A stretch of DNA of 52,221 nt, taken from an uncultured Candidatus Peribacteria bacterium. Its GTDB lineage: Bacteria > Patescibacteriota > Gracilibacteria > BD1-5 > UBA6164. A program made the position numbers and the translations under genes. The notes under the pieces are model-generated. The model worked only from the letters and a program-made list of their open reading frames with translations. It was not told the origin of the DNA and made no database searches. How positions within the stretch are numbered: the stretch's first letter is position 1; each line of letters starts with the position of its first letter. Below are positions 1,273 to 40,706 of this stretch, piece by piece. Where the stretch lies: NCBI GenBank assembly GCA_964344895.1, contig CAYFPB010000001.1, positions 16,069 through 68,289 on the forward strand. Reading direction: 5' to 3'.

Positions 1273-1404
1273 ATACAAAATATTAGTAAATTATTAATTA
1301 TAGAGTCATAATATCATATTTATTAAAAAAATACAAAAATTTGTATTGCAATAAAACAAATTATGGTTATATTTAATTAAATTATTAGTTAATTATTATT
1401 TTGT

Positions 1405-1947
1405 ATGGAAAAATTTTTAAAAGAAATTATTGAAGATAATGTTTTTGAGATATTAATTGATAAAGATATTTTTTCAAAAGATATTGTATTAAAAGCTTCA
1501 TATAATTTTTTAGATAGATGATACTTTTTTTTTAGATTAGATAAAGATTATAATATTATATTACAATTTACAAAAAAAGATGATTCTAATGAGAATCCGA
1601 AAAATATATTAGATGATTTTTCTGATGAAATGTTATCTGTATTACTAAGAGATAATTTGGAAAAAGAAAATAAAAATATAAGAGAAGCAATAGTTTGAGC
1701 AGCAATTTGAAATTGTTTGGACTCAAATAATTTTGTAGAGATAAATACAGATAAGCAAGAAAGTAATCAAATAGATTTTGATAAAGATATTGATGATATT
1801 TTGAAAGATATTGAGAATGATCCAGATTTAAAGATAGACGAAGAAGAAATAGAGAATATATTAAAAGAAATAGAAGAAGAAAGTAAAGTGGATATAAAAA
1901 TAGATCCTGAAGGATTAAAAAAAGCAAAAGAGAGTTTTAATAAGTAA
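1405..1947 (+). CDS. hxsD: HxsD-like protein (His-Xaa-Ser system accessory family) with an added acidic C-terminal tail
   Basis: 180-aa table-25 ORF, frame hand-checked. The N-terminal ~100 aa (FEILIDKDIFSKDIVLKASYNFLDRGYFFF ... DFSDEMLSVLLRDNLEKENKNIREAIV) fit what I recall of the TIGRFAMs HxsD model, which is named after an LLNDYxLRE motif. The tail reads DFDKDIDDILKDIENDPDLKIDEEEIENILKEIEEE. The gene lies two genes upstream of HxsB- and HxsA-like genes. Confidence 0.55.
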
Positions 1948-1950
1948 TAA

Positions 1951-2157
1951 ATGTTTATGAAAAATGTAATAGAATTAAATAATAAATTTTATACAGAGAA
2001 TTTGATAAATCATTGAATAGAAGATTTTAAAGAATATGCTGATATTAGTTATTATAACTGATTATTATCTATAGAGTGAGAGACTGAAACAGAGATAAAA
2101 GAAATATTTAATGAGTTTATGAATTATATAATATGACTTTATAATGAAACAATATAA
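1951..2157 (+). CDS. Small acidic protein (68 aa), paralog of 40513-40695; possibly a truncated HxsD-like module
   Basis: Sequence is MFMKNVIELNNKFYTENLINHGIEDFKEYADISYYNGLLSIEGETETEIKEIFNEFMNYIIGLYNETI, read codon by codon. It has the same position (immediately 5' of an HxsB-like gene) and the same layout as the 60-aa ORF at 40513. Confidence 0.5.
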
Positions 2158-2160
2158 TCT

Positions 2161-3639
2161 ATGATAGATACAAAAAATTTAGAGATAAATAAAAATACTG
2201 GTTTTTTTAGATTTAAAAAATTTGAAGATGATTATCTTATTACAAATGATATATGAAAATATAGTTTTTTAAATAAAGATGAATTTTGAGATTTTATTTC
2301 ATGAAAAATAGTTAGTTGAGAAAAATATAATGAATTATTAGAAAAAAGATTTATAAAAGATGAAAAATATGAAGAAAATATGGCAATCGGTTTTTCTAAG
2401 AAAAATAAATTCTTAGCTTATTGACCATCTTTACATATAATTGTAACCACTTTAAGATGTAATCATAAATGCAGGTATTGTCATGCTGCTGTAGCTCCAA
2501 TGACTGCAAGTGAAATGGATATGACAGAGCAAACTGCAAAAAAAGTTGTTGATGCTATATTTTTTACTTCTAGCCCAGATTTAACAATAGAATTTCAATG
2601 ATGAGAATCATTGGTTAATTGGGATATTGTAAAGTTTGTTATTGAATATTCTAAACAAAGGGCTTTTCATTTAAAGAAAAACTTACAATTAGCACTTGTA
2701 ACAAATTTAAGTTTAATGGATGATGAAAAGTTAACTTATTTATTAGATAATAAAGTCTGAATATCAACTAGTCTAGATTGAGATGAAGAAACTCATAATT
2801 TTAATAGAACATATAAAGAAGGAAATAGTTATAAAAAAGTAACTTATTGGATAAAAAGAATAAACTCTGAATATGAAAAAAGGTGAATAAAACAAAAAGT
2901 TTGAGCACTATTAACTGTTACAAAAAAAACTTTAACTAAGTATAAAGAAGTAATAGATACATATGTAGATTTATGATTAGATGGAATCTTTCTTAGACCT
3001 TTAAATCCATATGGTTTTGCTTTAGCAGAGCTAAAAGAGTTATGATATACTACAGAAGAATTTATAGAGTTTTATAATAAGTCAATGGACTATATAATAG
3101 AATTAAATAAAAAGTGAGTTAATTTTAAAGAAGCTCTTAGTTCAATTTATTTAACTAAAATGCTTACAGATTGAGATCCTAATTATTTAGATGAAAGAAG
3201 TCCTTGTTGAGCATGTATATGACAAGTTGCTTATAATTATGATTGAAGAATATATAGTTGTGATGAGGGAAGAATGTTTTCTAGAATGTGAGATGAAAAT
3301 TTCTTAATGACAGATATAAAAGAAACTTGAGAGGAAACATATAAAAGTATGATTGAATCAGAAACAACAAAAATAATGGTTCAAGCTTCAACTTTAGATT
3401 GATTACCTGGCTATAATGAAAGTGTTTATAAACCATATATTGGTGTATGTCCAATTCATAGTTATAAAACAAGTTGAAATATTATACCAAACTATTCAAA
3501 AGACCATAAAAAAATATTAGATTATGCTGTTTTAGATTATTTATTCTGAAAACTTAGGGATGAAAAAAATGAAAGAATATTTAAAAAGTGGTTATGAATG
3601 GAAACAAATACTGTTACAAGTCAATGTGAAACAATGTAG
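2161..3639 (+). CDS. hxsB: Radical SAM/SPASM-type maturase, HxsB-like
   Basis: 492-aa ORF, frame hand-checked. It has an FRFKKFEDDYLITNDIG N-terminus, a CX3CX2C motif (CNHKCRYCHA) and FQGGESLVNW. The C-terminal part is Cys-rich: SPCGACIGQVAYNYDGRIYSCDEGR ... YIGVCPIH. It is a full-length paralog of 40707-42212 and lies directly upstream of the HGS-repeat gene. Confidence 0.7.
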
Positions 3640-3664
3640 TTTTAATTTTTAATTTATATTTTTT

Positions 3665-4030
3665 ATGAGTACAAACAAAAAGAAAATTTTTCCAAAAATA
3701 AAAAAGAAATTAAGGTGATTTATAACTGAGGAGTCTTGAAAAATAAGTAAAAAAGATGCTTTATGATTAGCTGCTTGTTCTGCATTATTAAGTTGAATAT
3801 GAGAGGTTTGAGCAGGTCATTCTAGTTCTTATTCACCATCTTTTCCAGATACTGATGGTTCTGTTATTAAAGAATATAGTTCTGCATCTTGTAGTCATGC
3901 TAGTTGAGTTGTAAATGGTCACTATAGTTCAACTCCAACTGCTTCTGTTACAACAATAGATCATACACATGGTTCACATGGTTCACATGGCTCGCATGGT
4001 TCACATGGCTCTCATGGAAGTAGATGGTAA
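3665..4030 (+). CDS. hxsA: His-Xaa-Ser repeat protein (HxsA-like), candidate rSAM substrate/precursor
   Basis: 121 aa, read codon by codon. N-terminus is MSTNKKKIFPKIKKKLRGFITEESGKISKKDALGLAACSALLSGIGEVGAG, basic followed by a hydrophobic segment. The C-terminus is ...TTIDHT-HGSHGSHGSHGSHGSHGS-RW*. It is flanked by rSAM genes on both sides. Confidence 0.75.
3968..4021 (+). repeat. In-frame 9-nt tandem repeat (cat-ggN-tcN/agt) x6 encoding (His-Gly-Ser)6
   Basis: The sequence is catggttca catggttca catggctcg catggttca catggctct catggaagt. Synonymous third-position variation is visible. Confidence 0.95.
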
Positions 4031-4039
4031 TTAAAAAAT

Positions 4040-4978
4040 ATGCAAGATAAGGATTTTAAAGACATTAAATGATTGGAAATATCACTTTTATATCAATGTA
4101 ATGTTAAGTGTGAGTTTTGTCATTTATGAAATTTAAAATCTGAACATAGACAGAGTTTAACGAAAATTCAAGTTATTGACTTTTTAGAAAACTGATATAA
4201 AACATGAAAAAGATCTGTTGTATTTACATGATGAGAACCTACTCTTGATAATAATTTAGCTTTTTATATAGATTATTCAAAAAAGCTTTGATATAAATAT
4301 ATAAGAGTGCATTCAAATGGTTATTGATTTAGAGATTTTTCATATTTAGAAGATTTATATGATAAATGACTTACAGGTGTAACAATTTCTATACATGGAT
4401 ATTGACTAATACATGATTCAATTACAAAAGTAAAATGAAGTTTTGATCATATTTTTAGGAGTCTAGTAAATTTTGAAAAAATAATTTTAAAAGATAAAAG
4501 TTTTTCTGTTGATACAAATTCAATTATTTGCAGAAAAAATTATAAATACTTAAAACAATTATTAATATTTTTATTGAAATTTTCTATAAAAAGAAGGATG
4601 TTTACATATACATTTGATACTGTTTTATATCATGAATATGATAAATTAAAAAATATTATAGTATCTTATGAAGAGTTAAAGCAACCATTAGATGAATTAC
4701 TAGAATATTGTTATACTAAAAATGTTAAAGATTTTGTTTTAGATTCTGTTCCTTTTTGCCTTATAAATAAAAAGTATTGGAATTATATAGAAGAAAACTA
4801 TCTACCAGAAAAATTTTTTTATTTGTTAGATTATTATGAATGATATGAAAATACATATAATGATTGAAAAATAAAATATTTTGAATGTAAGAAATGTAGT
4901 AAAAATAATGTTTGTACTTGATTTTCAGAGGATAATAATTTACTTTATTGAAAAACTAAATTTAATATATTAATATAA
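4040..4978 (+). CDS. Radical SAM protein, candidate HxsC-type second maturase
   Basis: 312 aa, frame hand-checked. Motifs are CNVKCEFC, FTGGEPTL (tga tga gaa cct at 4229-4240) and a C-terminal ECKKCSKNNVC. Its position immediately 3' of the HxsA-like gene matches the paired-rSAM layout of Hxs systems. The HxsC assignment itself is not verified. Confidence 0.6.
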
Positions 4979-4984
4979 AAAAAT

Positions 4985-5800
4985 ATGAAAACTATAATTA
5001 TTACACTATTTTCTTTATTTTTGTTAGTTTCATGTTGAATATGAAATGATATAGAACAAACAATTGAGAATCAAAATAATTCTTCTAAAATAAAAACTCC
5101 AGTTGAGGATACTAAAAATGAAAATATAAATAAAAAAACTATAGAAAGTAAAGAAGTAATATTAAAAAAGATATCAGATAAAGATTTAAAGATAATTAAG
5201 CAAAAAGAAGAAAATATGAAAAAATATGGAAATACTGATGGAATTATTGAGCCTGAAAATAGTTTAACAGAAGAGAATAAGTTGGAATTAAAAAGGTTAT
5301 GAAATTGATTAGTTGATTTAGTTAATACTTATAAAGAAAAATGAGATACAGCTTTTAAATGACTAGCTTGACCAAGGTCATATATGTATTCTTTTTTAGT
5401 ATTTTGTAATAATTTAATTGAAGTAGATGATACTAATAAAGATTTATTTTTAAGCTTTTTATGATATGATACTAGAAAGTTATATGATTATGTAGTATCT
5501 AATAATATTACTACTCCTAAGGATATTGCTAAGGTAAAAGATTTAATAAATGAAAATGATCTAGATTTAGAAGAATTTTACTTAGTTTTGTATATTAATT
5601 GAAATATTTCAAAAAAGGAATTATTTCAATTATATGATTCATATATTTTGTGATTAGATCCTAAAGAAAAGCACTTCAATTTTAATCGGTTATATATGTG
5701 AGCTATTGAATCAAAAATTAATTGAAAACTTAATAAAAATATGTGTTATGATTTTGTATTAAATAGTAATGTTGATTTAGATAAAGTAATAAATAAATAA
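4985..5800 (+). CDS. Putative lipoprotein, no recognised domain
   Basis: 271 aa. The N-terminus MKTIIITLFSLFLLVSCG has a lipobox-like L-V-S-C. The rest is Lys/Glu/Asn-rich. Confidence 0.55.
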
Positions 5801-5803
5801 TAT

Positions 5804-6721
5804 ATGAAAATATTTTCTTCAAAAACAAATTACATAGAATTTTTTGTGAAAATTGGAAAAAAATGTCCTACTAGTTGTTCTAATTGTAGTTATGCTAACT
5901 CATCATTAGATTATTTTGATATAGAAAATATATTTAAAAGAGTAGATTATTGACAAAATCTTTTCCTAGGAAAAGATTTTGTCTATTTTTTATATTGAGT
6001 AGATTTCTTATCTCATCCTAAAATGTATGAAATCCTTGATTATATAAAAAATACATGAAGAAAATTTAAAATACAAATTTGATTATTAGACTTGGAAAAA
6101 AAAAGGGAAGTATTACTAGATTTATATAAAAGATATTGATTTTTTGAAGTAACTATAGCTAATGAAGTTAATGATAAAGATGATATAAAAAATATATTAA
6201 CAGCTCTATCTAGTTTTTCAAAAATAAATAATTTTAGGTTTAATTTTGACTTAATAATTGATGTAGCTAAAAACAAAGTTTTTATAAATAAATTAAAATC
6301 ATTATTTTGATCTTATAGAGTTGATAAAGTACATAAAAATTTAACTTTTGATGATGTCTGAAATATAAACCTTTGAATAACTGATAAGTTTTATTTAGAT
6401 TCAAGTAAAAAGAAAGTAAAAAATGTAGTTTATAGTCACTGTATAATGAATGATTTATTTGATATTGAAGATGATATAATATATTTTAATGATCATATAG
6501 AACTGGATTTTGATTGAAATATAATGCTACATACACCACTTTGTTTTTTAGCTTACATAAAAATAGCTCATATGGAAGATACACAACAAGTGATATTAAA
6601 AAAATTTAAAAAATTTAAGAAAGATATTTCTTGTATAGATTGAAATATGGAGGAAAAATGCTTTAAGTGTATTATTAATAATTATCCAAAATATAATGAA
6701 AGAAACAGTAAGAAAATTTAA
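5804..6721 (+). CDS. Radical SAM-like protein
   Basis: 305 aa. Has CPTSCSNC near the N-terminus and a C-terminal EEKCFKC. The 3' end overlaps the next gene by 26 nt. Confidence 0.55.
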
Positions 6722-7631
6722 TGATGTAGCCATAGTAGGGACTTATGAGTGTAATACTGATTGTGAGTACTGTTTTTCTACTAGGTATATAAAGCCTTAT
6801 AAAAACATATCTTTAACAAGGGACAAGTTTTATAATATTTTAGATAAGTTAATACTAAATTGAGTTACTTCAGTATCTTTTATATGATGAGAACCAGCAC
6901 TTTGGAAAGAAATAAATTTAGCTATATCCTATGCAAAGTCTAAATGATTAAGAACAACAGTTTTTTCCAATTGAATGATAGAGATAAAGAAAAAACCTGA
7001 TGTCTTTTATATTCATTTAAATGTATTATTTTTAACTCAAAATAAACAAATTTTAAAAAATTTATATGAATATTCAAAGAATTCAAAAATAGTTTTTATT
7101 TATAATGTATACAAACCAAATAAATTTTCTCTAAATTTATTATTAAAAGTGCTAGAAAGTTTTAGATTTGATTTTGCTGTTTCTTTTAATATTGTTTTTT
7201 GAGATAATATAGATGAATCATCTGGTGATTTTATATATAATTGATATAAGTATATTACCTGAAAAATGTGAAAAAATGTTATATCATCTTGACCATTACC
7301 TCATTGTATTTTTAATGATAAAGTATTTGATTATTTGAAAAATACTTGTATTATAGATGAAGTCAAATGATCAGCTAATTTTGAAAATACAGATGTTTTT
7401 TTTCCTGTAATTAATCCAGATTGAGATACATTAATGTCATGTGCACCAATTAATATAAAAATTAGTTCATCTTATATTTTTGAGAATGATTATAAATGAT
7501 ATACAGATAAATTTACAGAAATATTCTGAGAGATTTTATTAAAAGAAAATGATTTTTGTAAAGGCTGTACAAAGTTTAATAAACAATGCCAATATGGAGG
7601 TATTTTAAATCTGTATTCTTATGAGGAGTAA
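6696..7631 (+). CDS. Radical SAM protein
   Basis: 311 aa. Motifs are VGTYECNTDCEYCFS, FIGGEPALW and a C-terminal CKGCTKFNKQC. The track ORF 6975-7202 is an internal fragment in the same frame. Confidence 0.7.
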
Positions 7632-7645
7632 TAAATAGTATTATT

Positions 7646-8545
7646 ATGCACAACCTATTATTTGAAATTATTATGAGTAAAGATTGCAATAAGAGATGTC
7701 CTTATTGTAAACTTGATTTTTCTAAGAAAAATATAGATAATAAAAATTTAGATTTATTAATTAATCTATTAATTAATTCAAAAGAAAAAATAAATAGTTG
7801 TATTATAAATTTTTTTTGATGAGAACCTCTGTTAAATATAGTTTGAATAAAGTATTTTGTTGAAAAAACTAAACACTTAGGTTTTATTAAATATTCTATT
7901 TGAACTAATTGAATATTGTTAACTCAAGAAAAAATAAACTATTTTTTAGAAAATAATTTTAAAATATATTTATCTTTTGATTCTTCAAATACTGACTTTC
8001 TTGTAAATAAAGATTTTTTAAAAAAAGCAATTTGAAATATAGATGTTAACTATATAATTAATCCTAATACTATAGAAAAATCATATAATGATTTTGAAAA
8101 AATAGTAAAGTTTTGATATACAAATATAAATATAATGCCAGTATATTTTACAATAAAATGGGATAAAAACTCATTTATTAGTTTAAAAAGACTGTTAAGA
8201 GATAAAATAAATAAGTATTTATTAAATGATATTTTTAATATAAAATTTTATAGTTATTATAATTGAGTAAGTACAGATATACAATATATTTTAGAAACAG
8301 ATTGAACTCTATATTCTGACTTAGATAGTTTACTTTGGATTCAAAAACAATGATCTATTATATCAAAAGAATTAAGTCAACAAATAGAATATAAGACAAA
8401 AATTTGAAATATTTCTGATGTATCATTAAATAATATTATTAATGCTTATAATATTAAAGATATTATAAAATTGGTTCATGATATACCCAAAGAGCAGAAG
8501 TTTTTAAATGAATATACATTACTTAATAAAATATTAAATGGATAG
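7646..8545 (+). CDS. Radical SAM protein (paralog of 31473-32387)
   Basis: 299 aa. Motifs are CNKRCPYC, FFGGEPLLN and IMPVYFTIKW. The last matches LLPVYFTKTW in the 31473 gene. Confidence 0.7.
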
Positions 8546-9866
8546 TAAAAAGTTACTTAAATGGAAATATGCTACTTATATGAGGTTATATATGATGAAC
8601 TCATATTATTTTGCTTTAGAACCTTTTTTAAAGAAAAATGTTGAAGTTAATAAATGACTATTTAAAGATGTATTAATGATGAAAAATAAGGGCTTATATA
8701 TTCATATACCATTTTGTGTTACTGAGTGCTCTTATTGTGCTTGTACTAAAATGTCTCTAAAAGATAAGGCAGAATTAAGTAAGTATATAATATATATTAT
8801 AAGAGAGTTAGAGTTTTTTTATAAGTTAAATTGATCAAAGCTTTTAATATTTAATACTTTAACTTTTGGATGAGGTACTCCATCAATTTTCTCAGATAAA
8901 GATATTGAGAATATATTTGAATGAATTTATAAATATATTTCTAAAACTCATTTAACTCAAGTAAGTTTTGAATGTGCTCCTTATACAATTACAAAGTCAA
9001 AAATAGATACTTTAAAAAAAGTTTGAGTTGATAGAATATCTTTTTGAATACAATCTTTAGATAAATTAGTATTAGAAGCTAATAATAGACCTTATACATC
9101 AAAAGAAAAAATTTGAGAATTAATTGAGTATATTCATTCTAGAGGTATATTTATAGAATGAGATTTAATTGTTTGAATTAAATCTCAAACTATAAAAACA
9201 TTAGTATCAGATATAAAGTTTTTATTATCAAAGTGAGTAGATGATATTACATTTAATTACTTTTCTCCTCATATATTTTCAAAATATAGTGATACAAAAC
9301 AAACAATTGAGTTAAAAGAAAGATTTAAACTTATTGATAAAAAATTAGTTGAAAATTGACAAGTAATTTGATCATATCAAGTTCAAGAAAGATTTATACG
9401 GTCATCAAGAAGATACTCAATTATTGGATTAGGATATTGAGCAACTTCAAATCTTTGAAATTCTTTTGTTTATATTAAAGATTCTTTACAAGAGTATTAT
9501 GATTTAATTGATAAATGAAAATATCCTATTTCGTCTTGAATTTATTTAAACGAAAAATTTGAATATGTAAGATATATATATTTTGAACTAATTAAGTGAG
9601 AATTAGATATTGAAAAAGCTAAAGGTATTTTTGGATATTGTTTATTAGATTTTTTTGATAAAGAGTTTTCATTTTTAATAGAGGAGTGAATAATTGAAAC
9701 TGATTGAAAAATAGTAAAACTTATTGTTGATATTGATAAAGCTTTTGTCTATATGTCAGTTTTTATAGATGATATTATTGAGGAAAGTAATTTGAAAGTT
9801 CCAAAAAAATTACCAAAAAATATGGATATTATTTTGAGACAAATGATATATGATTATATTATATAA
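8538..9866 (+). CDS. HemN/HemW-like (class C type) radical SAM protein, copy 1
   Basis: 442 aa. Motifs are LYIHIPFCVTECSYCAC, FGGGTPS and GVDRISFGIQS. The start overlaps the previous stop (8538 vs 8545). Confidence 0.75.
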
Positions 9867-9875
9867 AAATAGAAT

Positions 9876-11195
9876 ATGAATGAAAAAAAATTAAATTTTT
9901 GGAAATATATGACATATAAAATGTTATCTATTAATTCTTCTTTTGTCTTTCCATTAGAGTTTTTTTTCAAGCATAATATTAAATTAGACAAGCAAAAAGT
10001 ATCAAAATATTTAGATATAAAAAATAAATGATTATATATTCATATCCCATTTTGTATAAAAATATGTGATTATTGTGGATGTTATAAACAAAAATTAACA
10101 AAAGATGATGATTTAAATAAGTATGTGGAATATTTAGTAAGAGAATTAGAATTATATTATGAATTAAATAATAATAAAAAGTTGGTATTTACTACAATTA
10201 TGTTTTGATGATGAACTGCATCAATACTTTCAGCTGAACAATTAGATTATTTATTTTCTTGAATATTTAAATATATTGATAAAAGTTATTTAAAGCAGCT
10301 TAGTTTTGAAGCATCAATTTTTACACTTAGTAATGATAAAATAAATGTACTAAAAAGCTATTGAGTTGATAGAATTTCAATTTGAATTCAGAGTTTTGAT
10401 AAAAATGTATTAGAAAAAAATAATAGAATTTATATAGAGTATAGAAAAATAAAACAAATAATTGATTATATAAAATTATCTTGAATATTAGTTCAAATTG
10501 ATTTAATGGTTTGAATAAAATGACAGGATGAAGTAAGTTGCATAAAAGATTTTAAAAAAATGCTTGATTTGTGAGTAGATAGTTATACAATGAATTATTA
10601 TATTCCACATAGTTTTGCTAATTTTTCAGATACTAAAAGATCAATTGATTTAAAGGAAACAATAAAGAAGCTTGATAAAAAATATAACTTTAAAACAAAA
10701 AATAATAATTCATATTTATTACAAGAGGAACTGGTATTTAATGATTTTAATTACTTTGTAATATGATTAGGAGTTTGAGCTACAACAAATATTGCTAATA
10801 GATTTATTTATAGGAAAACAGACTTTAATAATTATTATAATCACATTAAAAATAAATTGTTAATTGTTGATGAAGCAATAGAGATGTCTAATAAATTTGC
10901 AGCAATAAAATATATATTTGAAAAATATAAGGAAACTGAATTTGATTTAAAAGACTTTAAAAAACAATTTTGAGTAAAGCTAAAAGATTATTTCCCTTAT
11001 GAAATTGATTTTTTAATTAAGGAAAATATAATTAAATTAGAAAGTGATAAAGTAGTTTTTTTAAAAAATAAATATGAATCAAGAATTTATTTAAATATCT
11101 TTTTAGAAGATTTATTTGAGACAAAAAAAGATATAGATATACCAGTTTTAGATAAACAATTCCATATAGATTTAATGTGATTAATTTATGAATAG
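9876..11195 (+). CDS. HemN/HemW-like (class C type) radical SAM protein, copy 2
   Basis: 439 aa. Motifs are LYIHIPFCIKICDYCGC, FGGGTAS and GVDRISIGIQS. It is collinear with copy 1 from the N-terminus (KLNFWKYMTYKM vs KLLKWKYATYMR). Confidence 0.75.
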
Positions 11196-12090
11196 TAATT
11201 GTATGATAAGTAATGATAAAAATGTTTTTGAGTGTAGTGCAGTAACAAAGTGAATTGAAATAGAATTTACTAGTTATTGTGGATTAAAATGTATTGTATG
11301 TCCTAGGAAAAAACTAGATAGATATAATTTTTTAAAGTTTGATGACTTTAAAAAAATAGTAGCCTTAGTTAAACAAGGTAATTACACAGAAATAATGGTT
11401 TGTTGATTATGAGATGCTTTTTTACATGAAGAAATAAATCTATTTTTAGATTATTTATTTTGTGAAATCCCAGGAATAAATTTTTTTATAATGACTAAAT
11501 GACAAAGTATACAAGATAAGCACTTAGAAAAAATTAAAGAATTAAAAGATAGATGATTCAATGTTTCCTTAACTTTTTCAATTTTTTCACTTAATAAAAA
11601 AGTATATAATTATTTAACTTGATGAGAAAATTTTGATAGATTTATGAGTATTTTTAAAAAAGTAATTTCTATGAATTTAAATTATTCAATTGAGTTTTTA
11701 CTTTCTACTTTAACAATAAAAGAGTTGGAAAAATTTAAAGATTTTGCAAAATCTTTATGAAAAAATGACTATTGAGTTTCTTTGGTTCACAATTGGTGAT
11801 GAGAAATAAGTGATACTATACATAAAAAACTTTTTGATGAAGAAAAGTTAAAATGATTTTATGAAAAGAGGAAAAATAATGATTTGTGTGAAGCTATAAA
11901 ATATGATTATTTATATATTGATTCATATGGAGACGTGTTTCAATGCTCATTAAATGAGTTACATAGGAAATGATTTTTATGAAAAATATGAGAATATAGT
12001 TTGGAAGAATTTTTAGAAATGAAAAAAGATTTGAACTATAAAAAGACTTGTGAAAATTGTTTTTATTTGGATTATAAAACCTTTTGTTAA
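11188..12090 (+). CDS. Radical SAM protein with C-terminal Cys-rich (SPASM/twitch-like) region
   Basis: 300 aa. Has a CGLKCIVCPR motif. The C-terminus reads CEAIKYDYLYIDSYGDVFQC ... CENCFYLDYKTFC. Confidence 0.7.
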
Positions 12091-12092
12091 TC

Positions 12093-12857
12093 ATGAATAT
12101 ACTTATAATATGATTATGAAATCATTGAAAGAAATATGTAAATTTCTTTGAGGGAAGAAATTGGAATATATATTGAATATGTAAAACTCAAAAAACAAAG
12201 AATTATATAGAAGCTAATTATAATATAAAAGTATTTACTGATTATAGTAGCTTGATAAATGAAATAATTTTTGATTTTATAGTATTGGCTCTACCTTCAG
12301 ATATACAATGAAAAATTGCCATTGATATAGTTACTAAAGTTCCAAAAAAAACAAATATTTTGATAGAGTTGCCTGTTTCTGATTTTAAAGAGGATCGTAT
12401 AGAATTAGAAAAATATGATAATATAGGTTTCTTTGTAGAAGAGTATTATAGTTTGTTATCAAAATTTTTATCAAAAATTGATACTTCAAAGATAGAAAAA
12501 ATAAATGTAGTTATGAACATATCAGAAGAGGACTTTTGAGATAAAAAATCAGAAAATATTGATAAAATACATCTAATGAATAATTTTATTTTATCAGGAA
12601 TTAGTTATGATATTTTTGATATAAAAATAAATAAACACCAAGATTTAAATGTGTACTATAAAGTAACTTTTGATTATTTATGAAAATTTGTAGAATACAG
12701 TTTTTATAGAAATAAAACATTAAAAATTTGAACAAAGAGTTTTGATGATAGGTTTAATTTTGATGAAGTTGTGACTAGTATAATAAATGATTTTTCATAT
12801 GTATCTAAGTCAAAGCTTGATTTTAATAATTATTTTAAAAATATTATTAATAAATAA
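12093..12857 (+). CDS. Rossmann-fold (Gfo/Idh/MocA-like N-terminus) putative oxidoreductase
   Basis: 254 aa. MNILIIGLGNHGKKYVNFF is a dinucleotide-binding-type GxGxxG with Gly encoded by TGA. It shares GICKTQKTK with the minus-strand paralog at 24025-24990. Confidence 0.5.
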
Positions 12858-14960
12858 ATGAAATATATTTGAGCAAATTTTGTGACTACTATTAAGGATT
12901 GGAGTTGTATATTAATAGAAGATTGAAAATTAAGTTGAGCTTGTTTAGATAAGCTGGACTCTTTTAAGTTTTCTCCTTATTTGTCAGATTTAGTATTATA
13001 TTCTATTCAATCAAAAAGGGAATGAAAAAACTCAGAAGTATTTCCAAACTTGTATGAAAATGATTTATTAAATATAGTTTGAGAATCAAGAAATATTTTT
13101 AAAAAATATTTTTCATTAGATAAAAAATATAAAAGTGTAAACTTTGAGGAAAAAAGTATTTTTGATTATAAAAATAAGCATGCTTATTATCATGTTTTAT
13201 GAACGCATATGATATCTTGATTTGATAATTCAGTTTGATTATGTATTGATTACCTTTGATATAATGATAATTGAAATCACCAAGTTCAGACAATTTGGAA
13301 TTGTGTTTGAAATAAAATAGATTTAGTAGATGATTTTGATACAAGTTTAACAATAAATAGATGAATATGATTTACTTATTCTATATTTGCTGATATGTTT
13401 GATATATATAAATATGATGTGCCTTTTCTAGCTGTATATTGAAATAAAGATAGATTTAAGTGAGTTAATATTTATGAGTATAAAAATAATAATGTATATT
13501 TGAGGAAAGAATTTTTAGAATCTATAACACTGAATTCAGATTTATTACCAAAAACTTTTTATGCAAGTATTGAAGAGCTAAATTCAAATATGGATAATAT
13601 ATATTTTAATATAAAAAAGATTTTTAATATTTCAGATTTGGAAATAATAGAAGCTAAAAAAGATTTAAGGAAATGAGTAATTGCTGATTTGTTTGCATAT
13701 GTAGAAAATGAAACAAAAAAAGCAGTAGTATATTTGGCAAAAAAAGCATATAATACTGGTAAATCAAAAAAATTAACAGTCTCTGGTTGGTTGGCTTCAA
13801 ATCATCTATTATGTAAATCATTAATTGATGAAACAGAATTCAGAGATTTTTATTTTGAATTATCTCCAAACTATACAGGTATATCTATTTGAGCAGCTTT
13901 TGAATTATACTGAAAAAAAATACTATTAGAAAAAACCTGATATGGGAAAGAATATACAAATAATCAAATAAAAGCTGATTTAGATAATTATAATGATTAT
14001 ATAAGTTATTCTTTAGAAAAAAATACTAAAATACAAAATGATTTCATAATTGAAAAACTAATAGATAAGAAGATAATTTGATATTTTAAATGATGATCTG
14101 AACTGTGACCTAGGTCGTTATGAAATAGAAGTATTTTAACATCTTGTTTTTGTGAAGATTTATCAGATAGACTAAGAGTTATAAAAAAAAGACAAAATTG
14201 GAAAAGTTTTTCAGTATCAGTGTTAGAAGAGGATTTATGAAAATATTTTAAATCAAATTATAACTCTAGGTTTATGAGTGTTTCTTGAATTTTAAAAGAT
14301 AAGTTTAAAAAAGATTTTATATGAGTAAATCTAGATAATAATGTTATTAGATACCAAAGTGTTTGAGAAAAAAATAACTTAAGCTTATATAGTTTACTAA
14401 AACAATATAAGCAAAAAACAAATAATAGTTTTTTACTTAATACATCATTAAATTCATATAAACAACCAATTGTAGAAACACCCACTCAAGCTATAGAATT
14501 GTTTTTATCTTCAAGGATAGATTATTTAATATTATGAGATTTTATTGTTTCAAAGAATAAGTTATATAAAGAGTTTAGTTTTAATTATAAAAATTTAAAG
14601 AAACAAAAAAATATTCAATATTTTAGTATTAATCATAGTTCATATAAAAACTATTTAAATTTAAAAAATATTATTGAAAAAATAGTACTAAAGGATTATG
14701 ATATGAGTATAAATGATATAAAATATTTTGAAAGAGATATTGATATAGAATTTGCATGAAATAAGTTATTAATAGAAAAAGTTGATAATTGAAAAACATA
14801 TGATTTAAAAACAAAAAATATTTGAATTATGGTAAAACAACTTAATTCAAAAAAAGATTTAGCTATATTTTATAAAAAGCTACTATTGGTTGATAAAAAA
14901 ATAAAAGAAATATTTGATAATTGAGACTACTTTTTGAAGGATTTAATTAATTATTTATAG
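12858..14960 (+). CDS. Carbamoyltransferase family (NodU/CmcH/TobZ-like), divergent paralog 1
   Basis: 700 aa, frame hand-checked. Has YFKGGSELGPRSLGNRSIL (compare the family motif FGPRALGNRS) and LNTSLNSYKQPIVETP. Several positions conserved in paralogs 2 and 3 differ here. GGVALN is replaced by VSGWLASN, S/C-(E/D)-(D/E)-G by NYTG, and HID by NLD. Confidence 0.7.
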
Positions 14961-14965
14961 TTTGT

Positions 14966-16993: not shown

Positions 16994-18382
16994 ATGATAA
17001 CTCAAATATTTTATTCTCAGGTTCTTTTTCCTTCTATTACTTATGATAACTATATTGACTCAGATGTAATGCAGTTAAAACAAATAATTGAAGAAGATTT
17101 TTGATTAATTAAATGTATATTTAGGTGTATAGAGTGAAATTATTTTAATGTGTATTTTAAACATAAAGACTTTGTAGAGGATAAGACTTTACTTAATTCA
17201 AAGAATTGGTATATATATTGATGAGACTGAGAATGACTATTAAGTAGTGTAGTAAATACTATAAATCTATGAAAGAAAAAACAGACAGATTTTAATTTTT
17301 TTAAGGAAAAGGAGTTTTATGATAAAATTCCTTTTTGAACAGTATTATCTATTACAAGTAAATGTAATATATTTTGTAATTATTGTTTTAATGATTATGA
17401 TTATCCATTAAATACAAGAAATTCAAGAAAAACAATGAGTTTAGATCAGTATAAATATATAATTGATGAACTATATAAAGCTTGAACTAGAGATATAATA
17501 CTTACTTGATGAGAACCATTTGTATGTTCTTATTTATGGGATTTACTTGATTATTTGAAAGAAAAAAATATTTTTATAAGGATAAATACTAATTGAACCT
17601 TAATTAATGATAAGGTTTTAAAAAGACTGAATGATAATTATGTTGTTAATTTAATGGTATCTATTCATGAATTTAATAATAATGATTATTTTGAAGTTAA
17701 CAAAACTTGAGCAAAAAATATACAATGAATTAAATGATTAAACAATTTTGAAGAAAAGTTTGAAAAAAAGGTTATAGAATTAAGAAAAATAAAAAATTAT
17801 AAAAATATAAGCTTGGATGTTATGACTATTTTAAATCCAAAAAATATCTTTAATTTAGAAAAAATTTATGATTTTATATTAGGTAATTTTGAAATAGAGG
17901 ATTGGCATTTTTTTAGACTTTATTCTACTTGAACAACAAAGTGAATATCTAGATCTATGATATCTTTGGCAGTTGCTAAATTATATAAATTAAATAAGGT
18001 ATATAATAGAAGTTTTAAAATAGTTGATAGTATACCATTTTGTGCAACAAAAAATCCAGAAATAGCATGACAAGTAATTGATTGAGAATTATCACCACAT
18101 CATAATGTAAAGACAATTATAACTACTACTTGATGAGTACAAATAATGTCAGCTTTTGATACAACTTTATGAAGTATTTTTGAGGAAGGTATTGAAAAAA
18201 TATGGCAATGAGAGTTTGTACAAAAAATGCTGAATAATTGATATTTACCTGATGAATGTCATGATTGTAAATTTAAAGAAGAATGTAGGGGATGATCTAG
18301 GATGGATTGAAATATTTATAAATGAAGCTATAAGGCTTTTGATCCTCTTTGAGATATTAATAATAAAGTAATAAATGAATAA
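16994..18382 (+). CDS. Radical SAM/SPASM-type protein with ~115-aa N-terminal extension
   Basis: 462 aa. Motifs are CNIFCNYC and LTGGEPF. The C-terminus reads PFCATKNP ... ECHDCKFKEECRGGSRMD. The rSAM core starts only after about residue 115. Confidence 0.7.
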
Positions 18383-19664: not shown

Positions 19665-19665
19665 T

Positions 19666-32387: not shown

Positions 32388-32398
32388 TTAGTTTTTTT
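32370..32398. terminator. Hairpin shared by convergent genes (bidirectional terminator candidate)
   Basis: The stem aaaaaaactaac / gttagttttttt is 12 bp with a ttata loop, flanked by A and T runs. The two convergent CDS ends (32387 plus, 32377 minus) lie inside it. Confidence 0.5.
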
Positions 32399-33843: not shown

Positions 33844-33858
33844 TTGTATAGTAGAAAA

Positions 33859-40695: not shown

Positions 40696-40706
40696 AGTGT
40701 TAAAAA

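What the first reader, a model, noticed from the sequence alone, without database searches (positions are those of the whole stretch)
1405..5800. Compact Hxs-like core module: hxsD-like, small acidic ORF, hxsB-like, (HGS)6 protein, second rSAM, lipoprotein
The gene order is HxsD-like (1405), a 68-aa acidic protein (1951), an HxsB-like SPASM-type rSAM (2161), the 121-aa repeat protein (3665), a second rSAM (4040) and a lipoprotein (4985). Spacers are 3-25 nt.

The repeat protein has a basic N-terminus plus one hydrophobic segment, which looks like a signal anchor rather than a cleavable RiPP leader. It also has a Ser/Thr/Cys-rich middle and ends HT-(HGS)6-RW. The repeat shows only synonymous variation (ggt/ggc/gga; tca/tcg/tct/agt), consistent with selection on the peptide rather than on the DNA repeat.

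Which residue the rSAMs attack (His C-H, Ser, or Gly C-alpha) is unknown. Note that the Gly codons inside the repeat are GGN, not TGA.
Basis: partly seen in the sequence, partly recalled or inferred. Interest (0 to 1): 0.78.

Follow-up and report, generated by a model that had tools for sequence, protein, structure and literature searches.

The report
Variant His-Xaa-Ser peptide-maturation module, Gracilibacteria type
This is a real but non-canonical His-Xaa-Ser (Hxs) radical-SAM peptide-maturation module from a Gracilibacteria-type bacterium that reads TGA as glycine, and it is not a compact unit: it heads a long run of further radical-SAM genes, and a second such module lies in the same window.

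Summary
All six ORFs, the spacers and the HT-(HGS)6-RW tail are as described.

Curated models identify HxsD (62 bits, cutoff 50) and HxsB (498, cutoff 370). The 68-aa ORF is an 'HxsD-like' protein, just under its cutoff. The repeat protein belongs to a large HxsA3/HxsA4-like family of about 1,000 cluster representatives.

The order HxsD, small HxsD-like, HxsB, HxsA-like recurs in 31 of 36 Gracilibacteria loci.

Four parts of the interpretation do not hold:
- **The module is not compact.** It heads co-directional radical-SAM arrays: 0 such ORFs upstream against 108 downstream across 29 loci. The window holds 22 radical-SAM genes, a second Hxs set and a second HxsA-like gene.
- **ORF 4040 is not HxsC.**
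- **The lipoprotein is lineage-specific.**
- **The N-terminus looks like a cleavable signal.** It is a conserved leader followed by a short signal peptide, not a membrane anchor.

The canonical HXS system was shown in 2026 to be an anti-phage defence. This version differs from it in substrate architecture, enzyme set, HxsB iron-sulfur ligands and host envelope.

TGA is strongly avoided inside the repeats family-wide (6% against 55%), and I could not explain this.

Verdict: new variant of a known kind, of moderate to high interest.

The parts
1273..1404 (.). AT-rich divergent intergenic region, presumed start of the transcription unit
   Evidence: It is the only sizeable non-coding gap. A minus-strand secreted-protein gene starts at 1272 and HxsD starts at 1405. 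The promoter scan was uninformative, with 84 sites found against 78 expected.
1405..1947 (+). HxsD (180 aa): HxsD domain at residues 18-105, plus an acidic C-terminal tail (net charge -15)
   Evidence: TIGR03976 scores 62.1 bits against a cutoff of 50. Gracilibacteria orthologs are 52-69% identical, and NCBI names several of them HxsD. The AF2 N-domain has pLDDT of about 88. Charge.
1951..2157 (+). HxsD-like small acidic protein 'd' (68 aa)
   Evidence: NF038315 scores 36.6 bits, just under its cutoff of 41. The module-2 paralog at 40512 is 43% identical and scores 44.6, above the cutoff. It lies between HxsD and HxsB in 31 of 36 loci.
2161..3639 (+). HxsB radical-SAM maturase (492 aa) with a degenerate SPASM-type C-terminal region
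   Evidence: TIGR03978 scores 497.6 bits against a cutoff of 370. It is 35% identical to Aeromonas HxsB, E=1e-101. CxxxCxxC lies at residues 100-107. The CxxCx5C auxiliary motif is lost.
3665..4030 (+). HxsA-like substrate (121 aa). Conserved basic leader motif at 3689-3754, h-region at 3758-3802, c-region EVGA at 3803-3814, CSHASGVVNGHYS core at 3890-3928, and (HGS)6 at 3968-4021, then RW and stop.
   Evidence: Its only NCBIfam hits are HxsA3 (25.9 bits, cutoff 65) and HxsA4 (22.6, cutoff 55). Family evidence. Coordinates. AF2 model.
4040..4978 (+). Accessory radical-SAM enzyme (312 aa), remotely HxsC/HxsC4-like but not HxsC
   Evidence: HxsC4 scores 72 bits (cutoff 500), HxsC 69 (cutoff 268) and MoaA 64. 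The L008 ortholog is 73% identical at the same position. Relatives occur in 13 of 36 loci. It is 28.5% identical to w35133. It carries CxxxCxxC at residues 20-27 and a C-terminal CxxCx5C.
4985..5800 (+). Lipoprotein (271 aa, lipobox LVSC); a lineage-specific neighbour, membership unproven
   Evidence: It has no Pfam, NCBIfam or PADLOC hit. The only homologs are in L008/L031, at about 29% identity.
5804..24015 (+). Co-directional downstream array. Eight more radical-SAM ORFs (5804, 6696, 7586, 8538, 9876, 11188, 16994, 18375), a carbamoyltransferase-radical-SAM fusion (19994), two carbamoyltransferases (12858, 14966), a GFO/IDH/MocA-type oxidoreductase (12084), a nitroreductase (22647) and unknowns.
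   Evidence: Pfam hits. CxxxCxxC motifs. Gaps are 25 nt or less. The stretch 5804-12857 is collinear with L008 at 58-78% identity.
32377..33678 (-). A24-family (type IV leader peptidase-like) membrane protein, 433 aa; a recurrent neighbour
   Evidence: PF01478 scores 30.7 bits against a cutoff of 26.5. Homologs at 25-41% identity lie near HxsA-like genes in L003, L007, L013, L025, L029 and L038.
33844..36071 (+). Two HxsC/HxsC4-like radical-SAM genes of module 2 (33844-35133 and 35133-36071)
   Evidence: w33844 scores 129 bits on HxsC4 (cutoff 500). w35133 scores 99.5 on HxsC (cutoff 268). The L003 ortholog of w35133 is 73% identical.
36146..36742 (+). Second HxsD (198 aa)
   Evidence: TIGR03976 scores 43.8 bits against a cutoff of 50. 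It is 41% identical to w1405.
40512..42212 (+). Second HxsD-like (40512-40703, 63 aa) and second HxsB (40707-42212, 501 aa)
   Evidence: NF038315 scores 44.6 against a cutoff of 41. TIGR03978 scores 499.4 against 370. HxsB2 is 57% identical to HxsB1.
51869..52221 (+). Second HxsA-like gene, truncated by the window end (at least 117 aa, at least 10 HxS units)
   Evidence: Sequence. HxsA4 NF038313 scores 60.5 bits against a cutoff of 55 although the gene is incomplete.

Best explanation
**What it is.** Region 1405-4030 is a variant His-Xaa-Ser (Hxs) peptide-maturation module of a Gracilibacteria-type bacterium that uses genetic code 25. Its conserved core is four genes: HxsD, a small HxsD-like protein, the radical-SAM enzyme HxsB, and an HxsA3/HxsA4-like substrate.

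**Proposed mechanism.**
1. The 121-aa substrate is made with a long, basic, highly conserved N-terminal segment (FPKxKKKxKxF-[LI]-x-x-E-x-G-x-I-x-K). This acts as the recognition handle while the protein is still in the cytoplasm. (Inferred.)
2. HxsB modifies one or more H-x-S motifs, aided by the acidic HxsD and 'd' proteins. Candidate sites are the conserved S-H-A-S / G-H-Y-S core and the C-terminal (HGS)6 run. (Inferred by analogy with the E. coli system, where a +8 Da change maps to S-H-R-S-S.)
3. ORF 4040 and further radical-SAM enzymes of the same co-directional array may add lineage-specific modifications. (Inferred from synteny only.)
4. The short hydrophobic segment and the V-G-A|G-H site direct Sec export and cleavage. 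This releases a mature peptide of about 70 aa, rich in His and Ser and largely disordered, at the cell surface. (Predicted from sequence.)

**Role.** The physiological role is not shown. By analogy it would be an envelope-level barrier to phage DNA entry. Several differences make that transfer uncertain: the substrate has no peptidoglycan-binding domain, the repeats have no basic residues, there is no HxsC, and the host probably has no periplasm.

**Confidence.** The figure given applies to the identity and the maturation-and-export outline. For an anti-phage role specifically I put the confidence at about 0.3.
For: - **Curated model hits.** HxsD and HxsB score above their cutoffs. The best or only hits of the other two core genes are Hxs variants.
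- **Direct comparison.** HxsB is orthologous to an annotated canonical locus, at 35% identity and E=1e-101.
- **Conserved order.** HxsD, HxsD-like, HxsB, HxsA-like occurs in 31 of 36 species-representative Gracilibacteria loci. It also occurs in the standard-code relatives L005, L009, L048 and L049; L050 lacks the small ORF.
- **Leader conservation.** F19 and E23 are invariant. P10, K14, G25, I27 and K29 are at least 90% conserved across 39 diverse members.
- **Signal-like region.** The hydrophobic run has a median of 14 residues (58 of 105 are exactly 14). The n-region has a median of 30 residues, followed by a V-x-A-[GA]-H site. AF2 predicts a 17-residue helix there and a disordered tail.
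- **Charge complementarity.** HxsA residues 1-18 carry +8, the HxsD tail carries -15, and 'd' carries -9.
- **Experimental precedent.** In E. coli, HxsB, HxsC and HxsD are all needed for N-terminal processing, a +8 Da modification and export of HxsA (PMC13128918).
- **Downstream arrays.** Radical-SAM ORFs number 0 in 179 kb upstream and 108 in 243 kb downstream, 105 of them on the same strand. Window 1405-12857 is collinear with L008.
Against: - No experiment bears on this variant. Every chemical step is inferred by analogy.
- The canonical HxsA model does not hit the substrate. HxsA copy 1 is below both variant cutoffs.
- There is no HxsC ortholog, yet HxsC-HxsD is the proposed catalytic core in E. 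coli.
- Gracilibacteria HxsB proteins have lost most auxiliary-cluster cysteines, so the chemistry may differ.
- HxsD does not resemble a known peptide-binding RRE fold.
- The repeats are H-G-S with no basic residues. The predicted mature region has net charge -2 with His taken as uncharged. That weakens the electrostatic DNA-binding model.
- The broad, syntenic distribution in Gracilibacteria differs from the patchy, plasmid-borne distribution of canonical HXS.
- Signal-peptide cleavage is a heuristic call, not a predictor output.
Confidence: 0.72

Rival explanations
1. The four-gene core is only the entry point of one large biosynthetic pathway. The HxsA-like peptide would be a scaffold that many of the radical-SAM enzymes, the carbamoyltransferases and perhaps the nitrogenase-like reductase tailor heavily. 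The product would be a secreted modified peptide, a metal-binding compound or a peptide-derived cofactor, rather than a phage barrier.
For: - Gaps are 25 nt or less from 1405 to 24015.
- The window holds 22 radical-SAM ORFs among 47, bracketed by two HxsA-like genes.
- Radical-SAM ORFs number 0 upstream and 108 downstream across 29 loci.
- The accessory enzymes are better conserved with L008 (58-78%) than HxsD, HxsB or HxsA (49-59%).
- The HxsA4-type and standard-code loci also carry 2-10 extra radical-SAM genes.
- Nitrogenase-like genes join the array in the window, L020 and L037.
- Such radical-SAM plus nitrogenase-paralog clusters were previously proposed to make a novel cofactor (bioRxiv 10.1101/765248).
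- 81% of family members end in W, C or Y. From general knowledge, the PqqA and MftA precursors are also processed by SPASM-type enzymes, and MftA is modified at its C-terminal Tyr.
Against: - The content of the array varies greatly between species, so there is no fixed pathway.
- The Falkowbacteria locus L005 has the core but no extra radical-SAM gene nearby.
- An export signal on the substrate is unusual for a cofactor precursor.
- Adjacency alone does not prove a shared substrate.
- The published tetrapyrrole hypothesis for these clusters does not need a peptide.
Confidence: 0.3
2. The region is a compact, self-contained six-gene Hxs unit. ORF 4040 plays the HxsC role, the lipoprotein is a component, and the substrate is a membrane-anchored protein with an uncleaved signal anchor.
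For: - The two best NCBIfam hits of ORF 4040 are HxsC4 and HxsC.
- Its closest paralog in the window is the HxsC-like w35133.
- A 4040-like gene directly follows HxsA-like in about 7 loci.
- L008 keeps both 4040 and a lipoprotein at the same positions.
- Both modules in the window are followed by a lipoprotein gene.
Against: - The HxsC scores are far below the cutoffs and close to the MoaA score.
- ORF 4040 lacks the N-terminal domain of about 110 aa that real HxsC has, and is 19% identical to it.
- A 4040-like gene is absent from 23 of 36 loci.
- The two lipoproteins in the window are unrelated to each other and to envelope proteins at other loci.
- A 14-residue hydrophobic run is too short for a membrane anchor.
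- The unit continues without a break well beyond 5800.
Confidence: 0.12
3. The N-terminal segment is a class III (type IV pilin-like) signal. The co-located A24-family peptidase would cut it just before the invariant Phe, so the product would be a pilin-like or pseudopilin-like surface protein.
For: - The only two invariant N-terminal residues, F19 and E23, are spaced like Phe+1 and Glu+5 of type IV pilins. They are usually preceded by a basic residue. The pilin motif is from general knowledge.
- An A24-family gene lies beside module 2. Homologs recur near HxsA-like genes in L003, L007, L013, L025, L029 and L038.
Against: - The residue before the Phe is Gly (or TGA) in only 45 of 105 members. 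The rest are S, N, D, A, K and others.
- About 12 polar or charged residues separate the Phe from the hydrophobic run, unlike pilins.
- Most loci have no A24 gene within 10 kb.
- I could not establish the genomic background frequency of A24 genes.
Confidence: 0.08

Closest known systems
Canonical HXS anti-phage system, HxsD-HxsB-HxsC-HxsA (TIGR03976-03979; Li et al., Nat Commun 2026, PMC13128918). Compared here with the Aeromonas salmonicida A449 plasmid locus NC_009349.1.
   Same: - HxsB is an ortholog: 35% identity, and 498 bits on the curated model.
- HxsD is above its curated cutoff.
- The substrate carries tandem H-x-S repeats and an export-type hydrophobic segment.
- The genes are adjacent and co-directional.
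- An S-H-x-S motif (SHAS) is conserved, resembling the SHRSS site that is modified in E. coli.
   Different: - The gene order is HxsD, 'd', HxsB, HxsA-like rather than D-B-C-A.
- There is an extra small HxsD-like protein.
- There is no HxsC ortholog.
- HxsD carries an acidic tail of about 75 aa.
- HxsB has lost the CxxCx5C auxiliary-cluster motif.
- The substrate is 121 aa, not about 190-214 aa, and the canonical HxsA model does not hit it.
- The repeats lie at the C-terminus, not near the N-terminus, and are H-G-S rather than H-R-S or H-S-S.
- The substrate has a conserved n-region of about 30 aa and no peptidoglycan-binding domain.
- The module is followed by many further radical-SAM genes, whereas 99.8% of canonical systems have just four genes.
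- The host is a code-25 Patescibacteria lineage. 99.7% of canonical systems are in Pseudomonadota.
NCBIfam variant Hxs models: HxsA3 (NF038309), HxsA4 (NF038313), HxsD-like (NF038315), HxsC4 (NF038332). These are curated annotation models; I found no published description of them.
   Same: - The N-terminal motif of the window's HxsA-like proteins aligns to the HxsA3 and HxsA4 profiles.
- HxsA-like copy 2 (60.5 bits, cutoff 55) and the 'd' of module 2 (44.6, cutoff 41) pass their cutoffs.
- A locus whose substrate NCBI names HxsA4 (L009) has the same HxsD, small ORF, HxsB arrangement and also four extra radical-SAM genes.
   Different: - HxsA-like copy 1 fails both cutoffs (25.9 against 65; 22.6 against 55).
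- 'd' of module 1 is just below its cutoff (36.6 against 41).
- No protein comes near the HxsC4 cutoff (best 129 against 500).
- The Gracilibacteria proteins add a conserved C[SN]HASG[IV]VNGHYS core that the short HxsA4-type members lack.
Group VI nitrogenase-paralog and radical-SAM clusters (Méheust et al., bioRxiv 10.1101/765248)
   Same: The window contains a NifH-like gene (273 bits) and two NifD/K-like genes set among many radical-SAM genes, including HemN-like ones. That paper reported this pattern for Elusimicrobia, two Gracilibacteria genomes and Myxococcales.
   Different: The passages I read do not mention Hxs genes or a peptide substrate. Here the cluster lies between two Hxs modules. 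In L020 and L037 the nitrogenase-like genes lie within the array that follows an HxsA-like gene.
Peptide maturation by a SPASM-type radical-SAM enzyme plus a small partner protein, as in PqqA/PqqD/PqqE and MftA/MftB/MftC (comparison from general knowledge)
   Same: Both involve a small precursor peptide, a SPASM-family radical-SAM enzyme and a small accessory protein encoded next to it. In both the precursor has a conserved aromatic residue at or near its C-terminus.
   Different: - HxsD does not resemble the PqqD/RRE fold.
- The substrate carries an export signal.
- The SPASM cysteines are degenerate.
- No sequence model for these families scored near its cutoff.

Membership tests
Canonical HXS system (TIGRFAMs; PMC13128918) | HxsB radical-SAM maturase (TIGR03978) | tested here: met
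   w2161 scores 497.6 bits and w40707 scores 499.4, against a cutoff of 370. Both are 35% identical to Aeromonas HxsB.
Canonical HXS system (TIGRFAMs; PMC13128918) | HxsD small protein (TIGR03976) | tested here: met
   w1405 scores 62.1 bits against a cutoff of 50. The second copy, w36146, scores 43.8, just below. NCBI names the Gracilibacteria orthologs HxsD.
Canonical HXS system (TIGRFAMs; PMC13128918) | HxsC, the second radical-SAM maturase (TIGR03977) | tested here: not met
   The best window scores are 69 (w4040), 83 (w33844) and 99.5 (w35133), against a cutoff of 268. Aeromonas HxsC matches the window only at generic level; its best hit is w43207 at E=1e-8. None of the w4040 homologs is named HxsC.
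Canonical HXS system (TIGRFAMs; PMC13128918) | HxsA (TIGR03979) with a signal peptide, HxS repeats and a peptidoglycan-binding domain | tested here: not met
   HxS repeats are present. However, the canonical HxsA model gives no hit at E<=0.01, there is no Pfam domain, and the length and layout differ.
Canonical HXS system (TIGRFAMs; PMC13128918) | Four-gene unit in the order D-B-C-A | tested here: not met
   The order here is HxsD, 'd', HxsB, HxsA-like, followed by a radical-SAM array. The paper reports D-B-C-A in 99.6% of systems.
Canonical HXS system (TIGRFAMs; PMC13128918) | Radical-SAM-dependent N-terminal processing, a +8 Da modification and anti-phage activity | not testable with these tools
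   This needs expression, mass spectrometry and phage assays.
NCBIfam variant Hxs types (HxsA3, HxsA4, HxsD-like, HxsC4) | HxsA3 or HxsA4 substrate model at its curated cutoff | tested here: inconclusive
   Copy 1 (w3665) scores 25.9 on HxsA3 (cutoff 65) and 22.6 on HxsA4 (cutoff 55), so it is not met. Copy 2 (w51869, truncated) scores 60.5 on HxsA4 (cutoff 55), so it is met.
NCBIfam variant Hxs types (HxsA3, HxsA4, HxsD-like, HxsC4) | HxsD-like small protein (NF038315) | tested here: inconclusive
   w1951 scores 36.6, below the cutoff of 41. w40512 scores 44.6, above it. The two are 43% identical. The profile comparison with HxsD is collinear but not significant: probability 2.5%, E=0.019.
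NCBIfam variant Hxs types (HxsA3, HxsA4, HxsD-like, HxsC4) | HxsC4 radical-SAM protein (NF038332) | tested here: not met
   The best score is 129 bits (w33844) against a cutoff of 500; w4040 scores 72.
SPASM-domain radical-SAM peptide maturases | C-terminal seven-cysteine SPASM motif, including CxxCx5CxxxC, binding two auxiliary clusters | tested here: not met
   Canonical HxsB, L005 and L009 keep CxxCx5C. The window's HxsB1 and HxsB2 have Y, S and I at those columns. They keep only C349, C352 (HxsB1 only), C367, C430 and one C-terminal Cys. Another Gracilibacteria subgroup has lost nearly all of them. Pfam SPASM did not hit w2161.
Type IV pilin-like (class III signal) proteins | Gly at -1, Phe at +1, Glu at +5, with the hydrophobic helix starting right after the cleavage site | tested here: not met
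   The F and E spacing is conserved. However, the -1 residue is Gly or TGA in only 45 of 105 members, and a polar stretch of about 12 residues precedes the hydrophobic run.

The most novel reading that the evidence does not exclude
In Gracilibacteria, the HxsD / 'd' / HxsB / HxsA-like set is the conserved head of variable arrays of up to a dozen or more radical-SAM enzymes. In some genomes these arrays also include carbamoyltransferases and the 'group VI' nitrogenase paralog.

Under this reading, the exported HxsA-like peptide is the common scaffold for that chemistry. The enigmatic radical-SAM and nitrogenase-paralog clusters, previously proposed to make a novel tetrapyrrole cofactor, would then be peptide-tailoring pathways.

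The near-absence of TGA-encoded glycine inside the H-G-S repeats (6% against 55-58%) would reflect selection on how these repeats are decoded in a code-25 organism.
Probability: 0.2. Interest if true: 0.85.

Novelty: new variant of a known kind. Interest (0 to 1): 0.6.

Why it matters
**Test of the published model.** The Hxs system gained an experimental function only in 2026: a radical-SAM-matured periplasmic protein that blocks phage DNA entry in Enterobacteria. The chemistry of its +8 Da modification and the roles of HxsB, HxsC and HxsD remain unsolved. The variant here is a natural dissection of that system:
- it has no HxsC;
- it has an extra HxsD-like protein;
- its HxsB has lost most auxiliary-cluster ligands;
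- its substrate has no peptidoglycan anchor and no basic residues in the repeats;
- its host probably has no periplasm.

If it still matures and exports its substrate, that constrains which enzyme does what. It also tests whether electrostatic DNA binding in a periplasm is really the general mechanism.

**Unexplored enzymology.** In an organism expected to have a small genome of roughly 1-1.5 Mb (going by the complete relatives' genomes found here), 22 of the 47 genes in this 52-kb window are radical-SAM enzymes lined up behind or between Hxs modules. That points to a large, unexplored block of peptide or cofactor chemistry in the Candidate Phyla Radiation.

**Codon-level signal.** The codon bias in the repeats is a rare, quantifiable sign of selection at the codon level in a TGA=Gly organism.

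Tried and rejected
**Genetic code**
- Table-11 ORF calling gives 2.6% coverage, so all proteins had to be translated by script and pasted in as plain letters.
- Code 4 (TGA=Trp) is rejected: 0 of 136 aligned positions are Trp and 92 are Gly.

**Family and system assignments**
- PADLOC (2023) has no Hxs model. The only hits are generic similarity to viperin-type radical-SAM proteins.
- No HxsC ortholog was found by the curated model, by direct BLAST against Aeromonas HxsC, or by homolog names.
- The lipoprotein is not a conserved component. Envelope-associated proteins beside HxsA-like genes at nine loci show no detectable mutual homology.
- A prepilin-peptidase cleavage site is unlikely because the -1 Gly is not conserved.
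- HxsD as a PqqD/RRE-type peptide-binding domain: Foldseek against the PDB gave nothing at E<=1e-3. The weak top hits were Rpb11/RpoL-type subunits and, faintly, type III secretion chaperones.
- 'd' as a short paralog of HxsD: the hhalign match is collinear but not significant.

**Explanations tested for TGA avoidance in the repeats**
- His-Gly context: 53% TGA.
- Gly-Ser context: 64% TGA, and 62-66% before TCA or TCT.
- The following nucleotide has no effect.
- GATC avoidance: 82 observed against 86 expected from composition.
- None of these accounts for the 6% seen in the repeats.

**Uninformative scans**
- The promoter scan found 84 sites against 78 expected.
- A 14-bp terminator-like palindrome at 5952-5983 lies inside ORF 5804 and is not conserved in L008.
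- No tRNA genes and no Rfam families were found.

- The first genome scan, with a broad alignment, failed for lack of a conserved stretch and was rerun with a narrower alignment.
- AF2 on the HxsA-like family gave only low confidence, pLDDT 60.

Full report
**1. Genetic code and the observation**

Under the standard bacterial code the region breaks into short ORFs. With TGA read as sense, ORFs of 100 aa or more rise from 2.6% to about 100% of the window.

TGA falls in the radical-SAM 'GGE' motifs. At the 48 in-frame TGAs of the two HxsB copies, standard-code orthologs carry Gly in 92 of 136 ungapped positions and never Trp. The window therefore uses code 25 (TGA=Gly). GC is about 20-25%.

The 121-aa protein ends DHT-(HGS)6-RW, with only synonymous differences between repeat units.

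**2. What the genes are**

NCBIfam scores:

| ORF | Best model | Bits | Cutoff |
|---|---|---|---|
| 1405 | HxsD (TIGR03976) | 62.1 | 50 |
| 2161 | HxsB (TIGR03978) | 497.6 | 370 |
| 1951 (68 aa) | 'HxsD-like' NF038315 (its only hit) | 36.6 | 41 |
| 3665 (repeat protein) | HxsA3 / HxsA4 (its only hits) | 25.9 / 22.6 | 65 / 55 |
| 4040 | HxsC4 / HxsC | 72 / 69 | 500 / 268 |

- The two HxsC-type scores for ORF 4040 barely exceed its MoaA score of 64.
- The lipoprotein hits nothing in NCBIfam, Pfam or PADLOC.

I compared the proteins directly with an annotated canonical locus, Aeromonas salmonicida plasmid NC_009349.1, which has hxsD-hxsB-hxsC-hxsA. The results:
- HxsB is orthologous: 35% identity, E=1e-101.
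- HxsD is weakly similar: 27% identity, E=1e-5.
- HxsA has no match.
- HxsC matches nothing beyond generic radical-SAM similarity. Its best hit is w43207; w4040 is 19% identical at E=1e-5.

Real HxsC has a domain of about 110 residues before its CxxxCxxC motif. ORF 4040 has that motif at residues 20-27. None of the 21 database homologs of ORF 4040 is named HxsC.

**3. The substrate family**

The 121-aa protein has 106 homologs in the word-indexed search. A full profile search found 1,036 cluster representatives at E<=1e-3 and 244 at E<=1e-10.

The shared architecture is:
- a basic, strongly conserved N-terminal motif, ...FPKxKKKxKxF[LI]xxExGxIxK...;
- a short hydrophobic run;
- a V-x-A-[GA]-H site;
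- a variable middle that, in the Gracilibacteria members, holds a conserved C[SN]HASG[IV]VNGHYS core containing two isolated HxS motifs;
- a C-terminal (HxS)n run;
- a final residue that is W, C or Y in 81% of members.

In the N-terminal motif F19 and E23 are invariant, and P10, K14, G25, I27 and K29 are at least 90% conserved.

The hydrophobic run has a median of 14 residues (58 of 105 are exactly 14; range 9-21). It follows an n-region with a median of 30 residues. AF2 gives a 17-residue helix there, a small hairpin over the conserved core and a disordered tail, at low confidence (pLDDT 60).

This fits a cleavable Sec-type signal with an unusually long conserved n-region better than it fits a signal anchor. 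I could not run a dedicated predictor.

The predicted mature peptide, from G51, has 71 residues, with 10 His, 20 Ser and net charge -2 when His is taken as uncharged.

**4. Genomic context elsewhere**

A scan of species-representative genomes with the family alignment returned 36 loci. All come from Gracilibacteria or from MAGs labelled Peribacteria or Patescibacteria. Two are complete genomes, CP042461 and CP017714. All 36 read TGA as sense, with GC of 0.18-0.34.

- The order HxsD, 'd', HxsB, HxsA-like holds in 31 of 36 loci. The exceptions are contig ends or paralog sites.
- The same core occurs in standard-code relatives: Falkowbacteria L005, the NCBI-named HxsA4 locus L009, and L048-L050 (L050 lacks the small ORF).
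- Tandem HxsA-like pairs are common: L005, L007, L008, L020, L026 and L031.
- A 4040-like gene is present in 13 of 36 loci and directly follows HxsA-like in about 7.
- The 4985 lipoprotein has a homolog only in the L008/L031 lineage, at about 29% identity.
- Most loci have some membrane-anchored or secreted protein next to HxsA-like, but these are not detectably homologous to one another.

**5. The module is not compact**

- Along the + strand from 1405 to 24015 no gap exceeds 25 nt.
- L008 (GC 0.22) is collinear with the window from 1405 to 12857. Its accessory genes are better conserved (4040 at 73%, 5804 at 68%, 11188 at 78%) than HxsD (52%), HxsB (59%) or HxsA-like (49%).
- Across 29 loci with the full core, 179 kb of upstream flank holds 0 radical-SAM-like ORFs. 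The 243 kb of downstream flank holds 108, of which 105 are on the same strand.
- The window itself has 22 radical-SAM ORFs among 47. It also has three carbamoyltransferases, one of them fused to a radical-SAM domain, and a NifH plus NifD/K-like trio.
- A second Hxs set is present:

| Position | Gene | Score against cutoff |
|---|---|---|
| 33844, 35133 | two HxsC-like radical-SAM genes | 129 vs 500 (HxsC4); 99.5 vs 268 (HxsC) |
| 36146 | HxsD | 43.8 vs 50 |
| 40512 | 'd' | 44.6 vs 41 |
| 40707 | HxsB | 499 vs 370 |
| 51869 | truncated second HxsA-like | 60.5 vs 55 (HxsA4) |

- The paralog pairs are 41% (HxsD), 43% ('d'), 57% (HxsB) and 28.5% (4040 against 35133) identical.

**6. Differences from the canonical enzyme**

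In a MAFFT alignment, canonical HxsB and the standard-code relatives L005 and L009 keep the SPASM-type cysteines, including CxxCx5C. The window's two HxsB copies and L024 have lost that motif and keep only 4-5 C-terminal cysteines. Another Gracilibacteria subgroup (L001, L007, L008, L016, L038) has lost nearly all of them. So 'SPASM-type' is only partly right.

HxsD here carries a conserved acidic tail of about 75 residues (net charge -15), and 'd' has net charge -9. The substrate's first 18 residues carry +8. This suggests an electrostatic leader-chaperone contact, but that is inference only.

The HxsD N-domain model is confident, with pLDDT of about 88. It has no significant structural neighbour and does not resemble a PqqD-type RRE.

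**7. What is known, and how far it transfers**

Li et al. (Nat Commun 2026, PMC13128918) showed the following for E. coli HXS:
- it blocks phage DNA entry;
- HxsB, HxsC and HxsD are all needed for N-terminal processing and periplasmic accumulation;
- a +8 Da modification maps to SHRSS;
- HxsC binds HxsD;
- 99.7% of systems are in Pseudomonadota, and 99.6% have the order D-B-C-A.

The outline of cytoplasmic radical-SAM maturation followed by export plausibly transfers to the variant. The effector model transfers less well, for three reasons. The repeats here are H-G-S with no basic residues. There is no peptidoglycan anchor. From general knowledge, Patescibacteria lack an outer membrane, so there is no periplasm in the Gram-negative sense.

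NCBI already annotates Gracilibacteria HxsD by name, and NCBIfam holds models for the HxsA3, HxsA4, HxsD-like and HxsC4 variants. The variant is therefore known at annotation level. I found no literature on it.

Méheust et al. (bioRxiv 10.1101/765248) described radical-SAM-rich clusters around a 'group VI' nitrogenase paralog, including in two Gracilibacteria genomes, and proposed a tetrapyrrole-derived cofactor. The passages I read do not mention Hxs. Here such a cluster sits between two Hxs modules. In L020 and L037 the nitrogenase-like genes lie within the array that follows an HxsA-like gene.

**8. An unexplained codon signal**

TGA makes up 80% of Gly codons in the window: 726 TGA against 184 GGN. 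Yet all six repeat glycines of ORF 3665, and all those in the repeat of the second copy, are GGN.

Across 45 distinct HxsA-like genes:

| Location of Gly codon | TGA | Total | TGA share |
|---|---|---|---|
| Inside HxS runs | 13 | 212 | 6% |
| Elsewhere in the same genes | 421 | 760 | 55% |
| Adjacent HxsD, 'd' and HxsB genes | 802 | 1382 | 58% |

Fisher's exact test gives p of about 1e-43 and 1e-51 for the two comparisons with the repeat runs.

Context effects do not explain this. Outside HxsA-like genes, Gly after His is TGA 53% of the time and Gly before Ser 64%. The following nucleotide has no effect. GATC is not avoided (82 observed, 86 expected from composition).

The avoidance is also not a general rule for critical glycines, because the HxsB GGE motif uses TGA twice. 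Some metagenomic homologs do show HWS units, meaning TGA called as Trp under code 4, so the avoidance is strong but not absolute.

**9. Verdict**

The Hxs identity is right. The reading as a compact six-gene unit, with an HxsC equivalent, a lipoprotein component and a signal-anchored substrate, is not supported.

The best description is a Gracilibacteria-type Hxs variant whose four-gene core heads variable multi-radical-SAM arrays. Its function is inferred by analogy only. It is a new variant of a known kind, with interest of about 0.6.

Noticed in passing
window 3968-4021 and 52124-52213; 45 HxsA-like genes in L001-L046: TGA-encoded glycine is strongly avoided inside HxS repeats: 13 of 212 (6%), against 55% elsewhere in the same genes and 58% in the adjacent HxsD, 'd' and HxsB genes (Fisher p of about 1e-43). 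Dipeptide context, the following nucleotide and GATC avoidance do not explain it.
   Followed up: yes
window 51869-52221 (+), and 33844-42212: A second HxsA-like gene, truncated by the window end, passes the HxsA4 cutoff. A second set of HxsC-like (two genes), HxsD, HxsD-like and HxsB genes lies about 32-48 kb from the first module.
   Followed up: yes
whole window, 2161-51779: 22 of the 47 ORFs are radical-SAM enzymes, and 44 of 47 ORFs are on the + strand. The set includes a HemN-like pair (8538, 9876; 42% identical), a twitch-domain enzyme (47624; NF033640, 269 bits) and a near-duplicate pair (45778 and 48866; 59% identical).
   Followed up: partly
window 27772-31461 (+): A nitrogenase-like trio: two NifD/K-like proteins (PF00148) and a NifH-like protein (PF00142, 273 bits). 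It probably corresponds to the 'group VI' paralog that Méheust et al. reported with radical-SAM suites in two Gracilibacteria genomes. Here it lies between two Hxs modules. L037 has homologs (53-62% identical) downstream of its Hxs core.
   Followed up: partly
window 12858-14960, 14966-16993, 19994-22657 (+): Three paralogous carbamoyltransferases (NodU/CmcH type; 32-41% identical to each other). The third, of 887 aa, is fused to a C-terminal radical-SAM domain. A 700-aa ortholog follows the array in L008.
   Followed up: no
window 32377-33678 (-); L003 3826-5112 and 14590-15816; L007 16960-18333; L013, L025, L029, L038: A 433-aa membrane protein with an N-terminal Peptidase_A24 (type IV leader peptidase) domain recurs near HxsA-like genes. 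The family's two invariant N-terminal residues, F19 and E23, are spaced like Phe+1 and Glu+5 of pilins, but the -1 Gly is not conserved. I did not determine the background frequency of A24 genes.
   Followed up: partly
window 1-1272 (-) and 36768-40409 (-); L008 4838-7108; L003 5250-7868; L013; L017; L031: Large secreted proteins with repeated Ig-like units (...DVTVTITCSD..SGC.MY...) flank both Hxs modules. One interrupts module 2 between HxsD and 'd'. Homologs at about 31% identity recur beside Hxs cores or HxsA-like paralogs in other genomes.
   Followed up: no
HxsB alignment: window 2161-3639 and 40707-42212; L001, L007, L008, L016, L024, L038: Gracilibacteria HxsB proteins fall into two groups by auxiliary-cluster cysteines. 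One keeps 4-5 Cys and has a C-terminal 'SQCE' extension (the window's two copies and L024). The other has lost nearly all of them. Standard-code relatives keep the full SPASM set.
   Followed up: partly
window 5952-5983 (+): A perfect 14-bp inverted repeat followed by a T-run (terminator-like) lies inside ORF 5804, about 150 nt from its start. It is not conserved in the L008 ortholog, so it is probably incidental.
   Followed up: yes
window 45058-45768 (+) and 44232-45050 (+): An ankyrin-repeat protein (236 aa) and a DUF3050 protein sit among the radical-SAM genes of the second half of the window.
   Followed up: no
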